From IMG/VR virus record IMGVR_UViG_2563366924_000001, positions 1-5,046 of that record: a stretch of 5,046 bases of DNA, one strand, 5' to 3'. Position numbers and translations under genes: made by a program. The DNA is from a virus. Its lineage: Duplodnaviria; Heunggongvirae; Uroviricota; Caudoviricetes. How positions within the stretch are numbered: the first letter of the stretch is position 1; each line of letters opens with the position of its first letter. The notes beneath the pieces are model-generated. The model was given only the letters and a program-made list of their open reading frames with translations, was not told where the DNA came from and did no database searches. Below, one piece after another: positions 1,487-5,046 of the stretch.

Positions 1487-1969
1487 TTATTTGATAAGAA
1501 GTGAAGGTTTCCCAACTTTGAGTTGAGCGCCGGGGATATTTATTCCTGCTTTTAGTTGGTGTTTGATTGCCAGTTTGTCGGCTTTAATTGTCGTTTCAAA
1601 CTCAACGTATTCAGGAGGAAGGGCGCTTGAGTCGATTATTTCTACAATTTCTGACGGTTTGCGGATTGTTACCTGGTGAATACCTGCTCGAATATTTTTC
1701 TTGCCAACCATTTCAAGCGATGACGCTATATATGATTTGATGCTGTCAATCTTATTTTGGATTACTGCGGCTCGCTCATTCAGTGACTTTGCCTCTTCCT
1801 TGAGGCGTTCAGCATAACCAGATTCATTTTTAATGACGGAAAGAAGTTGCTCTATTTTATCGGTAAATTCTCCTTCCATGCCTTCTATTGTGTCAGCAAT
1901 CATCTCTGGCTCTAAATCTGAATCCATCAGCTTTGCGTATTCATTGGCTATTTCATACAGTTTGCTCAC
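1487..1969 (-). CDS. Gp157-like / Gam-like recombination-associated protein, about 160 aa
   Basis: ORF immediately downstream of recT, overlapping it by 17 nt. Start re-placed to the GTG at 1969, which has SD GGAGG and a 6-nt spacer; the track's TTG at 1975 sits directly against the SD. Size, coiled-coil N-terminal half and position next to RecT fit Siphovirus Gp157-type proteins (Pfam PF05565); the family call is from memory only. Confidence 0.7.
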   Translation of the reverse strand: MSKLYEIANEYAKLMDSDLEPEMIADTIEGMEGEFTDKIEQLLSVIKNESGYAERLKEEAKSLNERAAVIQNKIDSIKSYIASSLEMVGKKNIRAGIHQVTIRKPSEIVEIIDSSALPPEYVEFETTIKADKLAIKHQLKAGINIPGAQLKVGKPSLLIK

Positions 1970-2864
1970 TGGCAACCTCCAGTTTCGCTTTGCATTCTGT
2001 GTAAATGGCTTGTACGTTCTGCTGCAATTTCATTCCAGATGTCAGGCGATATGCTTCTGCAAAATATCGCTTCAAATCATCCATGTTTTCTGCCTGAGCC
2101 ATTTCATCACAAAGAAGTTGTGCTTTTTCCGTTATTTCCTGCTGGCGTTTCCTTTCATCTTCGCGGATATCTTCCTCTGATTTGTGCGGCATAACTGGTT
2201 CAGTCCACACACCTTCTTCTTCGTTTAGTACGTGAATAGCACTATCAAGACGTGATGCCTTAGGCCAATACTTGCTTGCACGCTTTACGACCGTCTTTCG
2301 CGCCATCTCATTCCAGTGATTTACCCATGGTCCTTTATCGCTGAATGCCGCCTTGCTTGTTTTCCTTACAGCCTCAATTTCAGCCAGACTCATCTCTTCC
2401 GTTAGATAATCACCTGCTGGCGTCTTAACTGTGCAGTAAACACCAACTATATCGCCACGATCACCGAAGGCGTTGTATTTATGGGTTGGTGCTTTATCAA
2501 GTCCGTTTGACTCATAAGTATCGTTAGCATGAACAAGCTTTGCCTGACCCCATGAGATAACACCAGACTCCATTGCAATATGGAGCAATCCCATATAGCT
2601 GATATCAAGGCAAACCATGCCGTCGCGAGGAACCAGATAAGCCAGTTTGCTGGCCGGGTTTAAGGTGATGCCGATCGCCGCAACATTGATGATAGCGTTC
2701 TGTGCGCTGGTTGGATTTGCCAGTGCTGTTTTAGCCAGGTAATCGTTTTTCTGGAAATACTGAATTGCAAACTGGCTTTCCTTAGCCCATGTCACCGTCT
2801 GTTCAGTCAATGCTCCGCAGAATAACTGCTCCTGCTGTTTAACGAATTCAACGATATTGCTCAT
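1953..2864 (-). CDS. recT: RecT-family single-strand annealing protein (recombinase), 303 aa
   Basis: Contains the RecT-type motif KGPWVNHWNEMARKTVVKRASKYWP (compare Rac RecT NGPWVTHWEEMAKKTAIRRLFKYLP, from memory). SD GGAGA 6 nt before the ATG. Acidic C-terminal extension. Sits in the recombination module of the pL operon. Confidence 0.85.
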   Translation of the reverse strand: MSNIVEFVKQQEQLFCGALTEQTVTWAKESQFAIQYFQKNDYLAKTALANPTSAQNAIINVAAIGITLNPASKLAYLVPRDGMVCLDISYMGLLHIAMESGVISWGQAKLVHANDTYESNGLDKAPTHKYNAFGDRGDIVGVYCTVKTPAGDYLTEEMSLAEIEAVRKTSKAAFSDKGPWVNHWNEMARKTVVKRASKYWPKASRLDSAIHVLNEEEGVWTEPVMPHKSEEDIREDERKRQQEITEKAQLLCDEMAQAENMDDLKRYFAEAYRLTSGMKLQQNVQAIYTECKAKLEVASEQTV

Positions 2865-3172
2865 GCTGCTTCTCCAAAAATGTGTCTGCGTTTAAATATT
2901 GCGAAGGCATATTCAGCCTTAACTCTTTCGGTTATTGCATCCCAGAACCATTCAGCGGCTTTTTCCTGATAGTTACAGTCATCATCTTCCAGCCAGTCGA
3001 TAGCGTCCTTAGTGTGTTCATCTGGTTTATATGAGCGAAGCATTTCGCTTATTGGGTCGCAACGTTTGCAGAGGCGATCAACTTCACTGTTGATTCGTTC
3101 GTAATCTTCATCAGTAAAACTTGCGATAATTTGCGATATTTCACGCTTATCATTCAGAGTCAGAATCATCAT
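2861..3172 (-). CDS. Hypothetical 103-aa acidic protein, translationally coupled to recT; possible host-nuclease inhibitor by position (inference)
   Basis: ATGATG start with SD AGGAGA. Its TGA stop overlaps the recT ATG (ATGA). Occupies the position held by gam (lambda) or abc (P22) directly upstream of the annealing-protein gene. No family recognised. Confidence 0.7.
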   Translation of the reverse strand: MMILTLNDKREISQIIASFTDEDYERINSEVDRLCKRCDPISEMLRSYKPDEHTKDAIDWLEDDDCNYQEKAAEWFWDAITERVKAEYAFAIFKRRHIFGEAA

Positions 3173-3257
3173 CTTTCTCCTGTTCTTTGTGCTGATTGAG
3201 CATTTTGTTCATCTGACGAATGAATTCTTCGTCTGACCATGTATCCGCAATACTCAT
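3144..3257 (-). CDS. Hypothetical small acidic protein, 37 aa
   Basis: Found by hand. ATG at 3257 overlaps the stop of the upstream 54-aa ORF (ATGA). Translation: MSIADTWSDEEFIRQMNKMLNQHKEQEKDDDSDSE. Overlaps the start of the next gene by 29 nt in another frame. Short and low-complexity, so uncertain. Confidence 0.35.
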
Positions 3258-3418
3258 TGCTTAACGACCTTAATCAGTTGAGTTACCTCAATGATGTCCT
3301 CGCATAAATCCGAGTACTGAAATGGGCCGCAGTTGTGAGAGTTAGTGCGTCTGGCGAAAGCCATTCTTCTAAGCTCTTTCAGGGCTTCTTCCAGTTCCTC
3401 GTAAGTTGGTTTTTTCAT
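3254..3418 (-). CDS. Hypothetical small protein, 54 aa (occupies the position of kil in lambda)
   Basis: Below the ORF-track length cut-off and found by hand. ATG at 3418 overlaps the cIII-like stop as ATGA, and its own stop overlaps the next ATG as ATGA. Translation: MKKPTYEELEEALKELRRMAFARRTNSHNCGPFQYSDLCEDIIEVTQLIKVVKQ. Confidence 0.5.
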   Translation of the reverse strand: MKKPTYEELEEALKELRRMAFARRTNSHNCGPFQYSDLCEDIIEVTQLIKVVKQ

Positions 3419-3585
3419 GGCTGTACCTTTTGATTCAGAAACTCAACAAGACGATCCAGCAAGCTCTTAACGCGAGGTTGTTTAAAGTCTGCTCCGGTTA
3501 AAATATTTTTTCGTGAATGCTGTACCGATAAAATCGGGTTGAAAGGGCGAACCGATGCCGCCCCTGCAATAGCGAACTGTTGCAT
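3415..3585 (-). CDS. cIII: cIII-like small regulatory protein (FtsH/HflB protease inhibitor family), 56 aa
   Basis: ATG at 3585 preceded by SD AGGAG with a 6-nt spacer. N-terminus MQQFAIAG resembles lambda cIII MQYAIAG, and ...SLLDRLVEFLNQ resembles the cIII central helix (recalled, not searched). Position after tL and before the recombination genes matches lambda. The 91-aa track ORF is this gene with a spurious TTG-initiated extension that runs through the terminator. Confidence 0.55.
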   Translation of the reverse strand: MQQFAIAGAASVRPFNPILSVQHSRKNILTGADFKQPRVKSLLDRLVEFLNQKVQP

Positions 3586-3650
3586 AGGATGCTCCTTCTG
3601 TTTGATTGCATAACGAAAACGCCTCGAGTGAAGCGTTATTGGTATGCATA

Positions 3651-3675
3651 TAAAAAAGCCCTCACATCGGAGGGC
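3651..3675 (-). terminator. Rho-independent terminator on the minus strand (tL-like), between the accessory cassette and the cIII-like gene
   Basis: Minus-strand RNA: GCCCUC-CGAUGU-GAGGGC followed by UUUUUUA. That is a 6-bp GC-rich stem (plus 3658-3663 / 3670-3675), a 6-nt loop and a 6-U tail (complement of plus 3652-3657). Confidence 0.6.
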
Positions 3676-3737
3676 AAAGAAGATTTCCAATAATCAGAAC
3701 AAGTCGGCTCCTGTTTAGTTACGAGCGACATTGCTCC

Positions 3738-3765
3738 GTGTATTCACTCGTTGGAATGAATACAC
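3738..3765 (-). other. Perfect 9-bp inverted repeat (GTGTATTCA / TGAATACAC) with 10-nt spacer; candidate RNA hairpin or protein-binding site
   Basis: Read directly: plus 3738-3746 GTGTATTCA, spacer ctcgttggaa, 3757-3765 TGAATACAC. Sits 15 nt downstream of the 156-aa gene stop. No U-tract follows on either strand. Confidence 0.4.
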
Positions 3766-3779
3766 AGTGCTTATTCGTA

Positions 3780-4250
3780 CTAATAAAATACCCAATTTTC
3801 TGTTTCTTGGTTGTGTCCAAAGTTATATTCAATATCTGGTGTTGATGTATCAATATTCTTCATCCCATCAACAAGAGTTGATACAACAGCCAAATCTTGT
3901 TTGATTCTCATTAAATGGTACTTCTTCCGGCGCAATAAACTTTCAATGGCAAGTTTCTTCGTTGGGAATGCAAAAGATCTTTCTGCATTTTTTGCTACTT
4001 TCTTAATTGCATATCTATTTCTCCTTTGTTTCCATTCCTGTAACCACTGATTTGGTGCTGGTTTAAAATTAACAATCCAATGCGCAGGAACCAACCATGC
4101 ATAATGCTCTGTCTGATGAAAAGCTATATATTGAAGTGCGAATATTTTTATCCCATCTTCTTCAACTGTCGCCTGGAATCTCCAGAAAACAGGCATTCCA
4201 TCATGTTCAGTTTCTGATTCAGGAAAAGGTACGCTCCATGATTTTGTCAT
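3780..4250 (-). CDS. Hypothetical 156-aa protein, Trp-rich N-terminal half and strongly basic central segment; function unknown (accessory/moron gene)
   Basis: Longest ORF in this segment, co-oriented with the operon. SD GAGGTGAGAT before the ATG at 4250. Seven Trp residues, and a K/R-rich stretch (WKQRRNRYAIKKVAKNAERSFAFPTKKLAIESLLRRKKYHLMRIKQ). Hand counts on sampled 60-nt lines give about 28-40% GC here versus 45-48% in flanking phage genes. I recognise no family. Confidence 0.7.
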   Translation of the reverse strand: MTKSWSVPFPESETEHDGMPVFWRFQATVEEDGIKIFALQYIAFHQTEHYAWLVPAHWIVNFKPAPNQWLQEWKQRRNRYAIKKVAKNAERSFAFPTKKLAIESLLRRKKYHLMRIKQDLAVVSTLVDGMKNIDTSTPDIEYNFGHNQETENWVFY

Positions 4251-4330
4251 ATCTCACCTCAAATAATTCAGTGCAGTGTTTATTCTGTTGTTTATGCCAA
4301 AAGAAGGCCGACTATGCGGCATAATTATTT

Positions 4331-4519
4331 TTAACTATCATCAATACATGGCACTTTATTCCAGTCGATATCGTTTTTATTGTCGTCCCACATGTCTTTG
4401 TTTTTGTATTTCTCGCTACATCCTAGGCAAATGTTGTATGGCCTACCGATAAGGTTTAACGAAATACGTTGCATTTCATTTGATTCAAACATGTATCCAC
4501 AGAACTGACATTTATGCAT
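4331..4519 (-). CDS. Small zinc-ribbon protein, 62 aa, acidic C-terminal tail; function unknown (accessory/moron gene)
   Basis: ORF with CxxC (C4,C7) and CxxC (C31,C34) separated by 23 residues. SD GAGG about 8 nt upstream of the ATG. Lies in a low-GC segment immediately downstream of N. Confidence 0.6.
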   Translation of the reverse strand: MHKCQFCGYMFESNEMQRISLNLIGRPYNICLGCSEKYKNKDMWDDNKNDIDWNKVPCIDDS

Positions 4520-4578
4520 ATCTCACCCCTCATACAGTAGCTTACTGCCTAATTTCATTTTCTGGCGACCAACACAAG

Positions 4579-4962
4579 TCACCTCGCCGTCAGTTGTTTT
4601 GATTTCCGGTAGCCTGCCGCGTAAATGGCTACGTTTGGAAGACATACACCAGTTTCTGGTTGCTTATGTCCAAACTCATTCGCGTACACAATGGCCGCTC
4701 GCTCCAGATTGCGTCTGTATTCTTTCTGTTGCCAGATCACGTCCTGTGCCATGAACTTAATTGGCTTAGCGTCTTCTATGCGCTCAGGCGTTTCGTGAGT
4801 ACCTTTAGCCTGAATCTGCGCTCTGCTTAGAGTAGGGCGGTGTAATACTTCTGAACTTATTGCTTCTTCGCGGGCCAGTACGCCGTTAGCTAATGCCTTT
4901 GCCTTTAAACGCTCACGACGACGAGAACGTGAATTGCCTTTGAACTGAGTTCTGCGTGTCAT
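4579..4962 (-). CDS. N: N-type transcription antitermination protein (P22 gene 24 / lambda N family), 127 aa
   Basis: N-terminal arginine-rich motif (SRSRRRERLKAKALA) of the kind that binds boxB RNA in N proteins. C-terminus ...LPNVAIYAAGYRKSKQLTAR closely resembles my recollection of the P22 gp24 C-terminus. Strong SD (AGGAGG, 5-nt spacer) before the ATG at 4962. It is the first gene of a leftward operon, followed by a terminator and a cIII-like gene. Confidence 0.8.
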   Translation of the reverse strand: MTRRTQFKGNSRSRRRERLKAKALANGVLAREEAISSEVLHRPTLSRAQIQAKGTHETPERIEDAKPIKFMAQDVIWQQKEYRRNLERAAIVYANEFGHKQPETGVCLPNVAIYAAGYRKSKQLTAR

Positions 4963-4995
4963 ATAGACCTCCTGATGAACTTTGGTGGTGTGGTG

Positions 4996-5015
4996 GCTGG
5001 TAGTCTAGCTCCAGC
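4996..5015 (-). promoter_or_regulatory. Candidate hairpin in the N leader (possible nutL-related structure)
   Basis: GCTGG / CCAGC 5-bp stem with a 10-nt loop, 30-50 nt upstream of the N start. The loop is longer than a canonical boxB and no boxA-like CGCTCTT(T)A was found in the 84 nt available, so this is weak. Confidence 0.2.
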
Positions 5016-5046
5016 TTGTTGAGTCTCATTCGGAGGGGTATAACCG

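What the first reader, a model, noticed from the sequence alone, without database searches (positions are those of the whole stretch)
3780..4519. AT-rich two-gene cassette of unknown function in the N-to-cIII slot of the pL operon
Between the N antiterminator and the terminator/cIII-like gene lie two co-oriented ORFs I cannot assign to any family: a 62-aa protein with a CxxC-x23-CxxC zinc-ribbon signature and an acidic tail, and a 156-aa protein with a Trp-rich N-terminal half and a strongly basic centre. Sampled GC is about 28-40% against 45-48% in the flanking phage genes, suggesting separate acquisition. In lambda this position carries ral and sieB, and in P22 ral/gene 17/sieB, all host-interaction functions; neither protein looks like SieB (no membrane segments) or Ral. 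Being N-dependent and upstream of tL, the pair would be expressed very early in lytic growth. That fits a candidate exclusion, anti-restriction or anti-defence module, or a small nucleic-acid-binding effector with a zinc-ribbon partner.
Basis: partly seen in the sequence, partly recalled or inferred. Interest (0 to 1): 0.8.

Follow-up and report, generated by a model that had tools for sequence, protein, structure and literature searches.

The report
Two independent accessory genes after N
The two AT-rich genes between the N antiterminator and cIII are real and conserved, but they are not a pair: each is a separately swappable accessory gene of unknown function, one being the long-catalogued HK97 gp45 / 933W L0079, sitting in a known variable slot of lambda-like phages.

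Summary
ORFs of 62 aa (4331-4519, minus) and 156 aa (3780-4250, minus) lie between a P22/933W/HK97-type N gene and two terminators ahead of cIII. The interval has 35.9% GC against 45.1% for the rest of the window. Both ORFs are under strong purifying selection.

The "two-gene cassette" reading fails:
- orf156 is HK97 gp45 / 933W L0079 (99-100% identical) and occurs in 598 of 5,426 complete E. coli genomes.
- orf62 (mEp213_050) occurs in 6, and the two are adjacent in only one.
- Natural relatives on similar backbones lack exactly one module or the other.

orf62 fills the slot where lambda and phage 21 carry orf28-ral. orf156 is a 504-bp insertion into the lambda-type ral-ea10 spacer. Each module carries the same RBS-start motif, GGTGAGATATG, which also serves as the recombination joint.

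Neither protein matches Pfam, NCBIfam, PADLOC or PDB, and their PHROG families have no known function. orf62 models as a treble-clef zinc finger. orf156 gives a weak model with no fold match.

My best guess, held weakly, is that they are independent early host-interaction or counter-defence proteins. Both genes are already catalogued. Interest is modest: they are screening candidates, not a new system.

The parts
4579..4962 (-). N antitermination gene (127 aa, P22/933W/HK97 type); upstream neighbour of the slot
   Evidence: Pfam N_peptide 2.1e-15; phrog_271 3e-39; 96-98% nt identity to HK97 and 933W N
4523..4582 (-). Boundary A: fossil 3' end of a phage-21-type N gene. It reads VTCVGRQKMKLGSK in another frame and ends in the RBS of the first slot gene
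   Evidence: Aligns with the 3' end and stop codon of phage 21 N and with the same stretch in 933W. The 40-aa ORF 4523-4645 is this fossil
4517..4527 (-). First copy of the 11-bp direct repeat GGTGAGATATG (RBS plus start codon of orf62)
   Evidence: HK97, 933W and L067 join window 4517 directly to 4266, which amounts to recombination or deletion between the two copies
4331..4519 (-). orf62: 62-aa Cys4(+1) zinc treble-clef protein with an acidic tail; same as mEp213_050 and Louie CDS0039; occupies the orf28-ral position of lambda and phage 21
   Evidence: phrog_19863, 5.6e-47; pLDDT 84; purifying selection
4269..4320 (-). Boundary B: conserved spacer GCCGCATAGTCGGCCTTCTTTTGGCATAAACAACAGAATAAACACTGCACTG. 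It follows ral in lambda and phage 21, Nmad5 in A21005 and orf62 here
   Evidence: Its small hairpin is no more stable than shuffles (z 0.09)
3765..4268 (-). orf156 module: a 504-bp single-gene insertion into the lambda-type ral-ea10 spacer, bounded by imperfect direct repeats GAATAAACACTGCACTG (4269-4285) and GAATAAGCACTG (3765-3776)
   Evidence: The lambda and phage 21 spacer is continuous across this point. IMG/VR locus L096 has the same backbone but lacks window 3771-4268
4248..4258 (-). Second copy of GGTGAGATATG (RBS plus start codon of orf156)
3780..4250 (-). orf156: 156-aa soluble protein (Trp-rich N half, basic centre, conserved C-terminal NFGHNxETExW); same as HK97 gp45 and 933W L0079
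   Evidence: (phrog_1636, 2.7e-112)
3736..3769 (-). Strong conserved hairpin (14-bp stem, no U tract) just downstream of the orf156 module; also present in lambda and phage 21 downstream of ral
   Evidence: MFE -30.2 kcal/mol, z -4.86, 0 of 200 shuffles as stable; conserved
3652..3675 (-). Intrinsic terminator (GCCCTC-loop-GAGGGC plus T6); same element as downstream of ral in lambda and phage 21, and annotated as a terminator in phage 21 and HK97
3612..3637 (-). Second terminator-like hairpin just upstream of cIII
3415..3585 (-). cIII (56 aa from the ATG behind AGGAG); downstream limit of the slot
   Evidence: phrog_550 2.2e-18 on residues 36-91 of the longer ORF call; RBS seen

Best explanation
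The interval holds two independent single-gene accessory modules, not a cassette. They sit in the hypervariable slot of the lambdoid leftward (pL) early operon, between N and the first intrinsic terminator ahead of cIII.

Shown:
- Module 1 (orf62, a small zinc treble-clef protein) sits exactly where lambda and phage 21 carry orf28-ral, between the same two conserved boundary sequences.
- Module 2 (orf156 = HK97 gp45 / 933W L0079) is a 504-bp insertion into the lambda-type ral-ea10 spacer.
- Each module brings its own copy of the RBS-start motif GGTGAGATATG. Recombination between such short conserved boundaries would add, remove or swap modules, and all four states occur in nature (both, either one, neither).

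Inferred:
- Neither module shows a promoter of its own, and no terminator lies upstream of them. Both would therefore be transcribed from pL together with N, very early after infection or induction.
- Each protein most likely works alone, as a small soluble binder of a host or competitor macromolecule. That means a host-takeover or counter-defence role.
- orf62 may be a positional analogue of the anti-restriction protein Ral. orf156 may be a basic, possibly oligomeric, nucleic-acid- or protein-binding factor.

Sub-confidences: independent modules in a boundary-delimited variable slot, about 0.9; early pL expression, about 0.75; host-interaction or counter-defence function, about 0.35-0.4.
For: Independence:
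- IMG/VR has 3 of 80 orf156 loci with orf62, and 4 of 29 orf62 loci with orf156.
- Complete E. coli genomes: 598 carry orf156, 6 carry orf62 and 1 has both adjacent.
- None of 330 matching phage records covers 80% or more of 3700-4580.

Exact breakpoints:
- HK97, 933W and L067 lack window 4267-4516.
- L096 lacks 3771-4268.
- L095 is 100% identical over 5046-3780.

Slot anatomy:
- The alignment with phage 21, mEp213, 933W and A21005 shows shared boundaries A and B around ral, orf62, Nmad5 or nothing.
- The post-orf62 and post-orf156 spacers together rebuild the lambda ral-ea10 spacer.
- At least nine different genes occupy slot 1 upstream of orf156.

Real genes: conserved full-length homologues and pN well below pS.

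Composition: 35.9% against 45.1% GC.

Expression:
- No sigma-70-like site on the minus strand and no terminator between N and orf156.
- Terminators follow at 3652-3675 and 3612-3637.
- Synteny with the annotated pL-nutL-N of 933W and phage 21.

Function, by position only:
- The same slot holds ral in lambda and phage 21, and sieB in lambda.
- Both proteins are soluble.
- orf62 models confidently as a treble-clef zinc finger.
- Distant orf156 relatives lie in the early regions of other prophages.
Against: - The orf156 model is poor (pLDDT 59.5), so its 'no fold match' result is weak.
- Guilt by position is thin. Apart from ral and lambda's sieB, every alternative occupant I scanned, in slot 1 or just downstream, lacks an assigned function.
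- pL and nutL lie outside the window, so the expression regime rests on synteny. Rho-dependent termination after N cannot be excluded.
- orf156 homologues in Pectobacterium and Brenneria sit next to xis-int rather than next to N. Position relative to N is therefore not a conserved property.
Confidence: 0.55

Rival explanations
1. One reading: the two ORFs form a co-acquired, functionally coupled cassette, with an effector (orf156) and a zinc-finger partner or regulator (orf62), moving and acting as one unit.
For: They are adjacent, co-oriented and similarly AT-rich (35-36% GC), and they share the same RBS-start motif. The same arrangement recurs in four IMG/VR contigs and in E. coli ECONIH4.
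Against: - Co-occurrence is rare: 1 of 598 orf156 genomes and 1 of 6 orf62 genomes; 3 of 80 and 4 of 29 loci in IMG/VR.
- orf156 stands alone in HK97, 933W and most Stx phages.
- orf62 stands alone in mEp213, Louie and L096.
- Each module has its own separable boundaries.
- The shared RBS motif is also found ahead of other genes in the slot, namely Nmad5 and the orf28-like start in phage 21.
Confidence: 0.04
2. One or both genes are prophage-beneficial exclusion or defence genes, functional analogues of sieB. They would be expressed in the lysogen to block superinfecting phages.
For: Lambda carries sieB in this interval, and P22 does too (my recollection). AT-rich inserted genes in lambdoid phages are often lysogen-expressed morons (HK97 gp15 is one, from my own knowledge). 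orf156 is very common in prophages, at 11% of complete E. coli genomes and up to 4 copies per genome.
Against: - No sigma-70 promoter-like site on the coding strand in 3300-5046.
- No membrane segments, unlike SieB.
- No PADLOC match.
- The modules lie inside the repressor-controlled pL transcript with no terminator of their own.
Confidence: 0.12
3. The proteins serve the phage's own programme rather than acting on host defences. They would be regulators or accessory factors of transcription, of the lysis-lysogeny decision, or of DNA replication and recombination. orf156 would be a nucleic-acid-binding protein and orf62 a zinc-finger regulator.
For: - orf156 has a strongly basic, conserved centre (pI 11.4) followed by a long predicted helix.
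- Its neighbours are regulatory and recombination genes: N, cIII, RecT and Gp157.
- Distant relatives lie among SSB, YqaJ exonuclease, HNH and methylase genes in other prophages.
- Treble-clef zinc fingers often bind nucleic acids or RNA polymerase.
Against: Both genes are dispensable in the sense that close relatives on the same backbone lack them. They are interchangeable with unrelated genes. That pattern fits accessory functions better than core ones. No HTH or other known DNA-binding family was detected.
Confidence: 0.22
4. The ORFs are non-functional passengers: decaying or selfish DNA kept only by linkage in a recombination hotspot.
For: No function is known, presence is patchy, and AT-rich composition inflates chance ORFs.
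Against: - Strong purifying selection with saturated synonymous sites.
- 40 invariant columns across 20 orf156 homologues from at least five genera.
- All five Cys are conserved in the full-length orf62 homologues; in the one with a divergent C-terminus (P0037) only the four Cys of the two CxxC pairs are kept.
- An HMM-detectable superfamily of 87 clusters exists.
Confidence: 0.03

Closest known systems
HK97 gp45 / 933W L0079 (phrog_1636; RefSeq WP_000167595.1)
   Same: orf156 is 99-100% identical in protein sequence. In HK97 the order N - gp45 - terminator - cIII - kil matches the window apart from orf62.
   Different: Nothing of substance. The window merely has orf62 inserted between N and this gene. 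The family has no assigned function, and I found no paper on it.
mEp213_050 / phage Louie CDS0039 (phrog_19863)
   Same: orf62 is 99-100% identical at the DNA level and sits in the same position directly after N.
   Different: In mEp213 and Louie the downstream neighbours are other genes (mEp213_049/048; 32-aa and 322-aa ORFs), not orf156.
Ral (restriction alleviation protein of lambda and phage 21)
   Same: orf62 lies between the same two boundary sequences downstream of N. It is of similar size (62 vs 66 aa), Cys-rich and presumably early-expressed.
   Different: No detectable sequence similarity (BLASTP finds nothing at E<=100). The Cys spacing differs: Ral has C-x5-C-x2-C-x5-C, orf62 has CxxC-x23-CxxC. 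Anti-restriction activity is untested. Ral and orf156 can co-occur (L132).
SieB (superinfection exclusion, lambda/P22)
   Same: It occupies the same N-proximal accessory interval in lambda.
   Different: SieB is a membrane protein with its own expression in lysogens (my knowledge). orf62 and orf156 have no hydrophobic segments, no promoter-like site and no family match.
Lambdoid 'morons' and boundary-sequence module exchange (Juhala et al. 2000; Degnan et al. 2007, cited from memory. The mEp234 record EF120460 annotates a 'boundary sequence 4' at this very junction)
   Same: Each is a discrete insertion between genes that are adjacent in relatives. Composition is deviant. Short conserved sequences lie at the joints.
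   Different: Classical morons carry their own promoter and terminator and are expressed from the prophage. These modules show neither and ride on the pL transcript.
Treble-clef zinc fingers (RING, FYVE, ribosomal L24e)
   Same: The orf62 model has a zinc-knuckle hairpin plus a second CxxC at the N-terminus of a helix. The best structural neighbours are of this class.
   Different: All matches are non-significant (Foldseek E >= 0.035, TM about 0.4-0.55). There is only one metal site, not the two of RING and FYVE domains (my own knowledge), and no functional inference is possible.

Membership tests
Ral (restriction alleviation) | Sequence similarity to lambda or phage 21 Ral | tested here: not met
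   BLASTP of orf62 against phage 21 Ral gives no alignment at E<=100. Neither ORF gives a Pfam or PHROG Ral hit.
Ral (restriction alleviation) | Position just downstream of N, between boundary A and the spacer that precedes the terminator and ea10 | tested here: met
   orf62 lies between the same flanks as orf28-ral of phage 21 and lambda.
Ral (restriction alleviation) | Alleviates type I restriction or enhances modification | not testable with these tools
   Needs plating of unmodified phage on EcoKI+ hosts expressing orf62.
SieB superinfection exclusion | Membrane protein with hydrophobic segments and SieB family similarity | tested here: not met
   The maximum KD 19-aa window is 0.56 for orf156 and 0.41 for orf62. 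No Pfam, PHROG or PADLOC match.
Moron (Juhala/Hendrix sense) | Gene inserted between two genes or sequences that are adjacent in related phages | tested here: met
   L096 lacks 3771-4268. HK97, 933W and L067 lack 4267-4516. The lambda spacer is continuous across the orf156 insertion point.
Moron (Juhala/Hendrix sense) | Nucleotide composition distinct from neighbours | tested here: met
   35.9% against 45.1% GC. The window's lowest-GC 740-bp stretch (35.8%, from 3755) almost coincides with the interval.
Moron (Juhala/Hendrix sense) | Own promoter and terminator allowing expression from the repressed prophage | tested here: not met
   No sigma-70-like site on the minus strand and no terminator private to either module. 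The scan is consensus-based, so weak promoters cannot be excluded.
Two-gene cassette / obligate partner pair | Conserved adjacency and co-occurrence of the two genes across genomes | tested here: not met
   1 of 5,426 genomes has both adjacent, against 598 and 6 with either gene; 3 of 80 and 4 of 29 loci in IMG/VR.
Zinc treble-clef / zinc-ribbon finger | Two conserved CxxC pairs | tested here: met
   C4, C7, C31 and C34 are invariant in 8 homologues at 68-98% identity.
Zinc treble-clef / zinc-ribbon finger | Fold match to known zinc fingers | tested here: inconclusive
   AF2 pLDDT is 84 with a knuckle plus a helix-N-terminal CxxC. The best Foldseek hits are RING, FYVE and L24e, but at E >= 0.35 in PDB and >= 0.035 in BFVD.
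Zinc treble-clef / zinc-ribbon finger | Binds zinc | not testable with these tools
   Needs metal analysis of purified protein.
phrog_1636 (HK97 gp45 / 933W L0079 family) | Full-length HMM match | tested here: met
   E 2.7e-112 over 1-156 of 156; 99-100% identity to HK97 gp45 and 933W L0079.
phrog_19863 | Full-length HMM match | tested here: met
   E 5.6e-47 over 1-62 of 62.
Known anti-phage defence systems (PADLOC-DB) | HMM match to a defence-system protein | tested here: not met
   orf156 has only a Cas1_II fragment at E 0.018, which is noise. orf62 has none.
Known anti-defence proteins | Match to a curated anti-defence family | not tested
   No anti-defence HMM library was available. PDB sequence profiles and BFVD/PDB fold searches showed no such relative.

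The most novel reading that the evidence does not exclude
At least one of the two proteins could be a counter-defence factor of a new structural class. The candidates are orf156 (HK97 gp45 / 933W L0079, carried by about 11% of complete E. coli genomes and by most Stx-converting phages) and orf62, a Ral-position zinc finger. If so, the N-proximal slot, with its dozen interchangeable unknown genes (Nmad5, DUF7446, DUF5484, phrog_1372, phrog_3054 and others), would be an anti-defence hotspot in lambdoid phages comparable to the P2/P4 defence hotspots.
Probability: 0.25. Interest if true: 0.6.

Novelty: already known. Interest (0 to 1): 0.3.

Why it matters
The main practical value is as a correction. 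The pair should not be studied or modelled as a complex, because each gene is a free-standing module.

orf156 is one of the most widespread uncharacterised early genes of E. coli lambdoid prophages, including 933W-type Shiga-toxin phages and the model phage HK97. That makes a function easy to pursue genetically. The slot it occupies holds the anti-restriction gene ral, lambda's sieB, and many unknowns.

If these interchangeable genes turn out to be counter-defence or exclusion factors, the boundary-delimited slot after N would be a compact, easily mined source of such genes. orf62 also illustrates a small conserved gene that RefSeq annotation misses in all six complete E. coli genomes that carry it.

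Tried and rejected
Family and homology searches that gave nothing useful:
- Pfam, NCBIfam and PADLOC scans of both proteins gave no significant hit.
- PHROGs matched only families of unknown function.
- A Pfam scan of 54 distant orf156 relatives returned only noise.
- PDB sequence-profile searches with A1, A2 and A3 gave a best E of 0.16-0.66.

Structure:
- The orf62 model was good, but Foldseek against PDB and BFVD found only generic treble-clef neighbours.
- AFDB50 was unavailable.

Other leads:
- The HMM search of 1.84 billion representatives found a superfamily of 87 clusters with no annotated member. Two multi-domain 'hits' (P0074, P0088) were repeat-driven false positives.
- Rfam found no RNA family in the window.
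- I asked whether ral and orf156 are mutually exclusive. They are not: L132 carries both.
- The literature held nothing on L0079, WP_000167595, phrog_1636, the protein sequence or 'HK97 gp45'. Neither sequence is among the genes tested in the Silas et al. 2025 accessory-gene screen.
Full report
**What is in the window**

All substantial genes lie on the minus strand and form a lambdoid leftward early operon:
- N, 4579-4962 (Pfam N_peptide 2e-15).
- orf62, 4331-4519.
- orf156, 3780-4250.
- A strong hairpin, then two terminator-like hairpins.
- cIII, true start 3585 (phrog_550).
- Small unknown ORFs: 3254-3418, 3150-3257 and 2861-3172.
- RecT, 1953-2864.
- A Gp157 / Mu-Gam-like gene, 1487-1975.
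- Two further unknown genes.

pL and nutL lie beyond the right end of the window. In 933W, nutL is 166-232 bp upstream of the N start.

**Checking the observation**

orf62 has CxxC-x23-CxxC, a fifth conserved Cys at 58, and an acidic tail (pI 4.05). orf156 has 7 Trp (5 in the first 70 residues), a basic centre (pI 11.4) and no hydrophobic segment.

GC of 3780-4519 is 35.9% against 45.1% for the rest. The lowest-GC 740-bp stretch of the window (35.8%, starting at 3755) almost coincides with it. GC3 of orf156 is 28%.

Both ORFs are real genes:
- orf156 has full-length homologues at 55-99% identity in Escherichia, Cronobacter, Rosenbergiella, Pectobacterium and Brenneria, with 40 invariant columns.
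- orf62 has homologues at 68-98% identity, and all four Cys of the two CxxC pairs are invariant.
- Pairwise pN is 0.11-0.25 against pS 0.69-1.0.

**What the genes are**

orf156 is 99-100% identical to HK97 gp45 and 933W L0079, and it is present in most Stx-converting phages. Its PHROG family is phrog_1636, of unknown function. HK97 has the order N - gp45 - terminator - cIII - kil, which is this window without orf62.

orf62 is identical to mEp213_050 and to a gene of phage Louie. Its family is phrog_19863, also of unknown function.

In complete E. coli genomes, orf156 DNA occurs in 598 of 5,426, with up to 4 copies per genome. orf62 occurs in 6, and RefSeq leaves it unannotated in every one.

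**They are not a cassette**

- Only one complete genome (ECONIH4) has the two adjacent.
- No record in the phage collection covers 80% or more of 3700-4580.
- In IMG/VR, 3 of the 80 best orf156 loci carry orf62 upstream. Four of the 29 orf62 loci carry orf156 downstream.
- Breakpoints are exact. HK97, 933W and locus L067 join window 4517 to 4266, so they have no orf62 module. Locus L096 joins 4269 to 3770, so it has no orf156 module. L095 is 100% identical to the window from 5046 down to 3780, where that contig ends.
- Lambda and phage 21 have neither gene and carry orf28-ral instead.

All four combinations therefore exist on related backbones.

**Anatomy of the slot**

Downstream of the N stop lies a fossil of the 3' end of a phage-21-type N gene (4523-4582). 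It ends in the RBS of the next gene.

Slot 1 follows. It holds orf28-ral in phage 21 and lambda, orf62 here and in mEp213 and Louie, an Nmad5-domain gene in many prophages, and nothing in HK97 and 933W. Among 24 contigs that carry the boundary-B/orf156 junction, it also holds at least six other unknown genes:
- phrog_1372 (107 aa, acidic).
- phrog_3054 (149 aa, two hydrophobic segments).
- phrog_33140.
- DUF7446.
- DUF5484.
- phrog_11941.

Slot 1 closes with boundary B (4269-4320).

In lambda and phage 21, boundary B runs straight into the hairpin and terminator that precede ea10. In the window, a 504-bp module (3765-4268) carrying orf156 is inserted exactly at ...AACACTGCACTG^TGTATTC.... The module ends in GAATAAGCACTG, an imperfect repeat of the GAATAAACACTGCACTG just upstream.

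Both modules begin with GGTGAGATATG (4517-4527 and 4248-4258). The HK97/933W state corresponds to recombination between these two copies. The mEp234 GenBank record annotates a 'boundary sequence' at this junction. That fits the published view, which I cite from memory (Degnan et al. 2007; Juhala et al. 2000), that lambdoid mosaics are joined at short conserved sequences.

**Expression (inferred)**

The consensus scan of 3300-5046 finds no promoter-like site on the coding strand. It finds no terminator between N and the end of orf156, apart from a weak 5-bp hairpin inside N.

Downstream of orf156 there are three structures:
- A very stable conserved hairpin at 3736-3769 (z -4.86), without a U tract.
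- An intrinsic terminator at 3652-3675.
- A second terminator-like hairpin at 3612-3637.

The first two are the elements found downstream of ral in lambda and phage 21. From memory, this terminator belongs to the tL2 cluster of Luk and Szybalski.

Both genes should therefore be transcribed from pL together with N, very early. Whether they need N at all is open. N would be needed to read through the terminators into cIII, not to reach these genes, unless a rho-dependent site follows N.

**Function**

Homology gives nothing. Pfam, NCBIfam and PADLOC show no significant hit. PDB sequence profiles also find nothing.

orf62 gives a confident model (pLDDT 84) with a zinc knuckle and a second CxxC at the start of a helix, which is a treble clef. 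Its neighbours (RING, FYVE, L24e, assorted phage proteins) are all non-significant. It has no similarity to Ral.

An exhaustive HMM search found 87 clusters at E<=1e-3. They include a divergent set of 130-155-aa proteins that share the pattern YR..E.G...ET.C...K..K..SRFAF.TKE.A...L..RK..Q..HLKRDL. These fall in phrog_13631, 25384 and 28215, all of unknown function.

Their genomic contexts are early regions of other prophages, near SSB, YqaJ exonuclease, HNH, DNA methylase and integrase genes. In Pectobacterium and Brenneria the close homologue is the last gene before xis-int, not next to N.

Ten literature searches found nothing on either gene. Neither is among the accessory genes screened by Silas et al. 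2025 (PMC12373910).

**Interpretation**

The firm result is evolutionary and anatomical. These are two independent, single-gene, promoter-less accessory modules in a boundary-delimited hypervariable slot of the pL operon.

The functional proposal is weaker. I suggest each is a stand-alone early host-interaction or counter-defence protein. orf62 would be a positional analogue of Ral. orf156 would be a basic, possibly oligomeric binder. The proposal rests on four things:
- The slot's known occupants, ral and sieB.
- The dispensability and interchangeability of the modules.
- The solubility of both proteins.
- Their early expression.

I put it at about 0.35-0.4.

**Novelty and verdict**

Both genes have been in GenBank for years as hypothetical proteins: 933W and HK97, both sequenced around 1999-2000 (dates from memory), and mEp213 (accession JQ182733). 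The variable, boundary-joined nature of this region is established.

The finding is a correct description of an ordinary, already-catalogued accessory region, with an incorrect inference that the two genes form a unit. The open question of what HK97 gp45 / 933W L0079 does is real and easy to address experimentally. Nothing here shows it to be unusual. Interest 0.3.

Noticed in passing
window 4523-4645 (minus strand): The 40-aa ORF overlapping the end of N is not a gene. Its C-terminal half (VTCVGRQKMKLGSKLLYEG) is a fossil of the C-terminus of a phage-21-type N protein (…GRQKIKLGSKPLI). It is retained downstream of the P22/HK97-type N stop and also in 933W, and it marks an old recombination joint.
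   Followed up: partly
window 3736-3769 (minus strand): A very stable 14-bp-stem hairpin without a U tract (-30.2 kcal/mol, z -4.86) is conserved almost base for base in lambda and phage 21, between ral and the terminator. I know of no assigned role. It could be a processing site, an mRNA-stability element or a recombination boundary.
   Followed up: partly
window 4331-4519; E. coli hits H116-H121: orf62 is left unannotated ('none' under the match) in all six complete RefSeq E. coli genomes that carry it, despite clear conservation and purifying selection.
   Followed up: yes
L006 4535-5158; L130, L136, L139, L143, L144, L147, L148: A 207-aa Nmad5-domain protein (PF18757, 'nucleotide modification associated domain 5', E 5e-70) is a frequent alternative occupant of the ral/orf62 slot immediately upstream of orf156. 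This hints at a nucleotide- or DNA-modification function in the same hotspot.
   Followed up: partly
L128-L151 (IMG/VR), region between N and orf156: The slot has at least six more interchangeable genes of unknown function. They are a 107-aa acidic protein (phrog_1372), a 121-149-aa protein with two hydrophobic segments (phrog_3054, possibly an exclusion-type membrane protein), an 87-aa protein (phrog_33140), DUF7446, a Cys/Trp-rich 45-aa DUF5484 and a 92-aa protein (phrog_11941).
   Followed up: partly
L123 4001-6011; L124 4001-5922: In Brenneria alni and Pectobacterium betavasculorum prophages the orf156 homologue (62-63% identical) is the last gene before an excisionase-like ORF and the integrase, not next to an N gene. 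It is again lower in GC than its locus (43-45% vs 48-49%).
   Followed up: partly
window 3415-3690: The mechanical 91-aa ORF over-extends cIII across both terminators. The PHROG match covers only residues 36-91, and a good RBS (AGGAG) precedes the ATG at 3585, giving a 56-aa cIII.
   Followed up: yes
window 3254-3418, 3150-3257, 2861-3172: Three more small conserved genes of unknown function lie between cIII and RecT. orf54 (phrog_32687) sits where kil lies in lambda, HK97 and Louie but gave no Kil match. The others are an acidic 35-aa ORF and orf103 (phrog_3486).
   Followed up: no
L005 3226-4836 (E. coli ECONIH4): In the only complete genome with orf62 and orf156 adjacent, an ISSpu7 (IS1634-family) transposase is inserted just downstream of orf156, between it and the TolA-like 322-aa gene.
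   Followed up: no
window 1487-2864: The recombination module is a RecT (PF03837) plus Sipho_Gp157 / Mu-Gam-like pair, rather than lambda's exo-bet-gam or HK97's erf-abc2. This is another mosaic difference from the phages that share the N-gp45 region.
   Followed up: no
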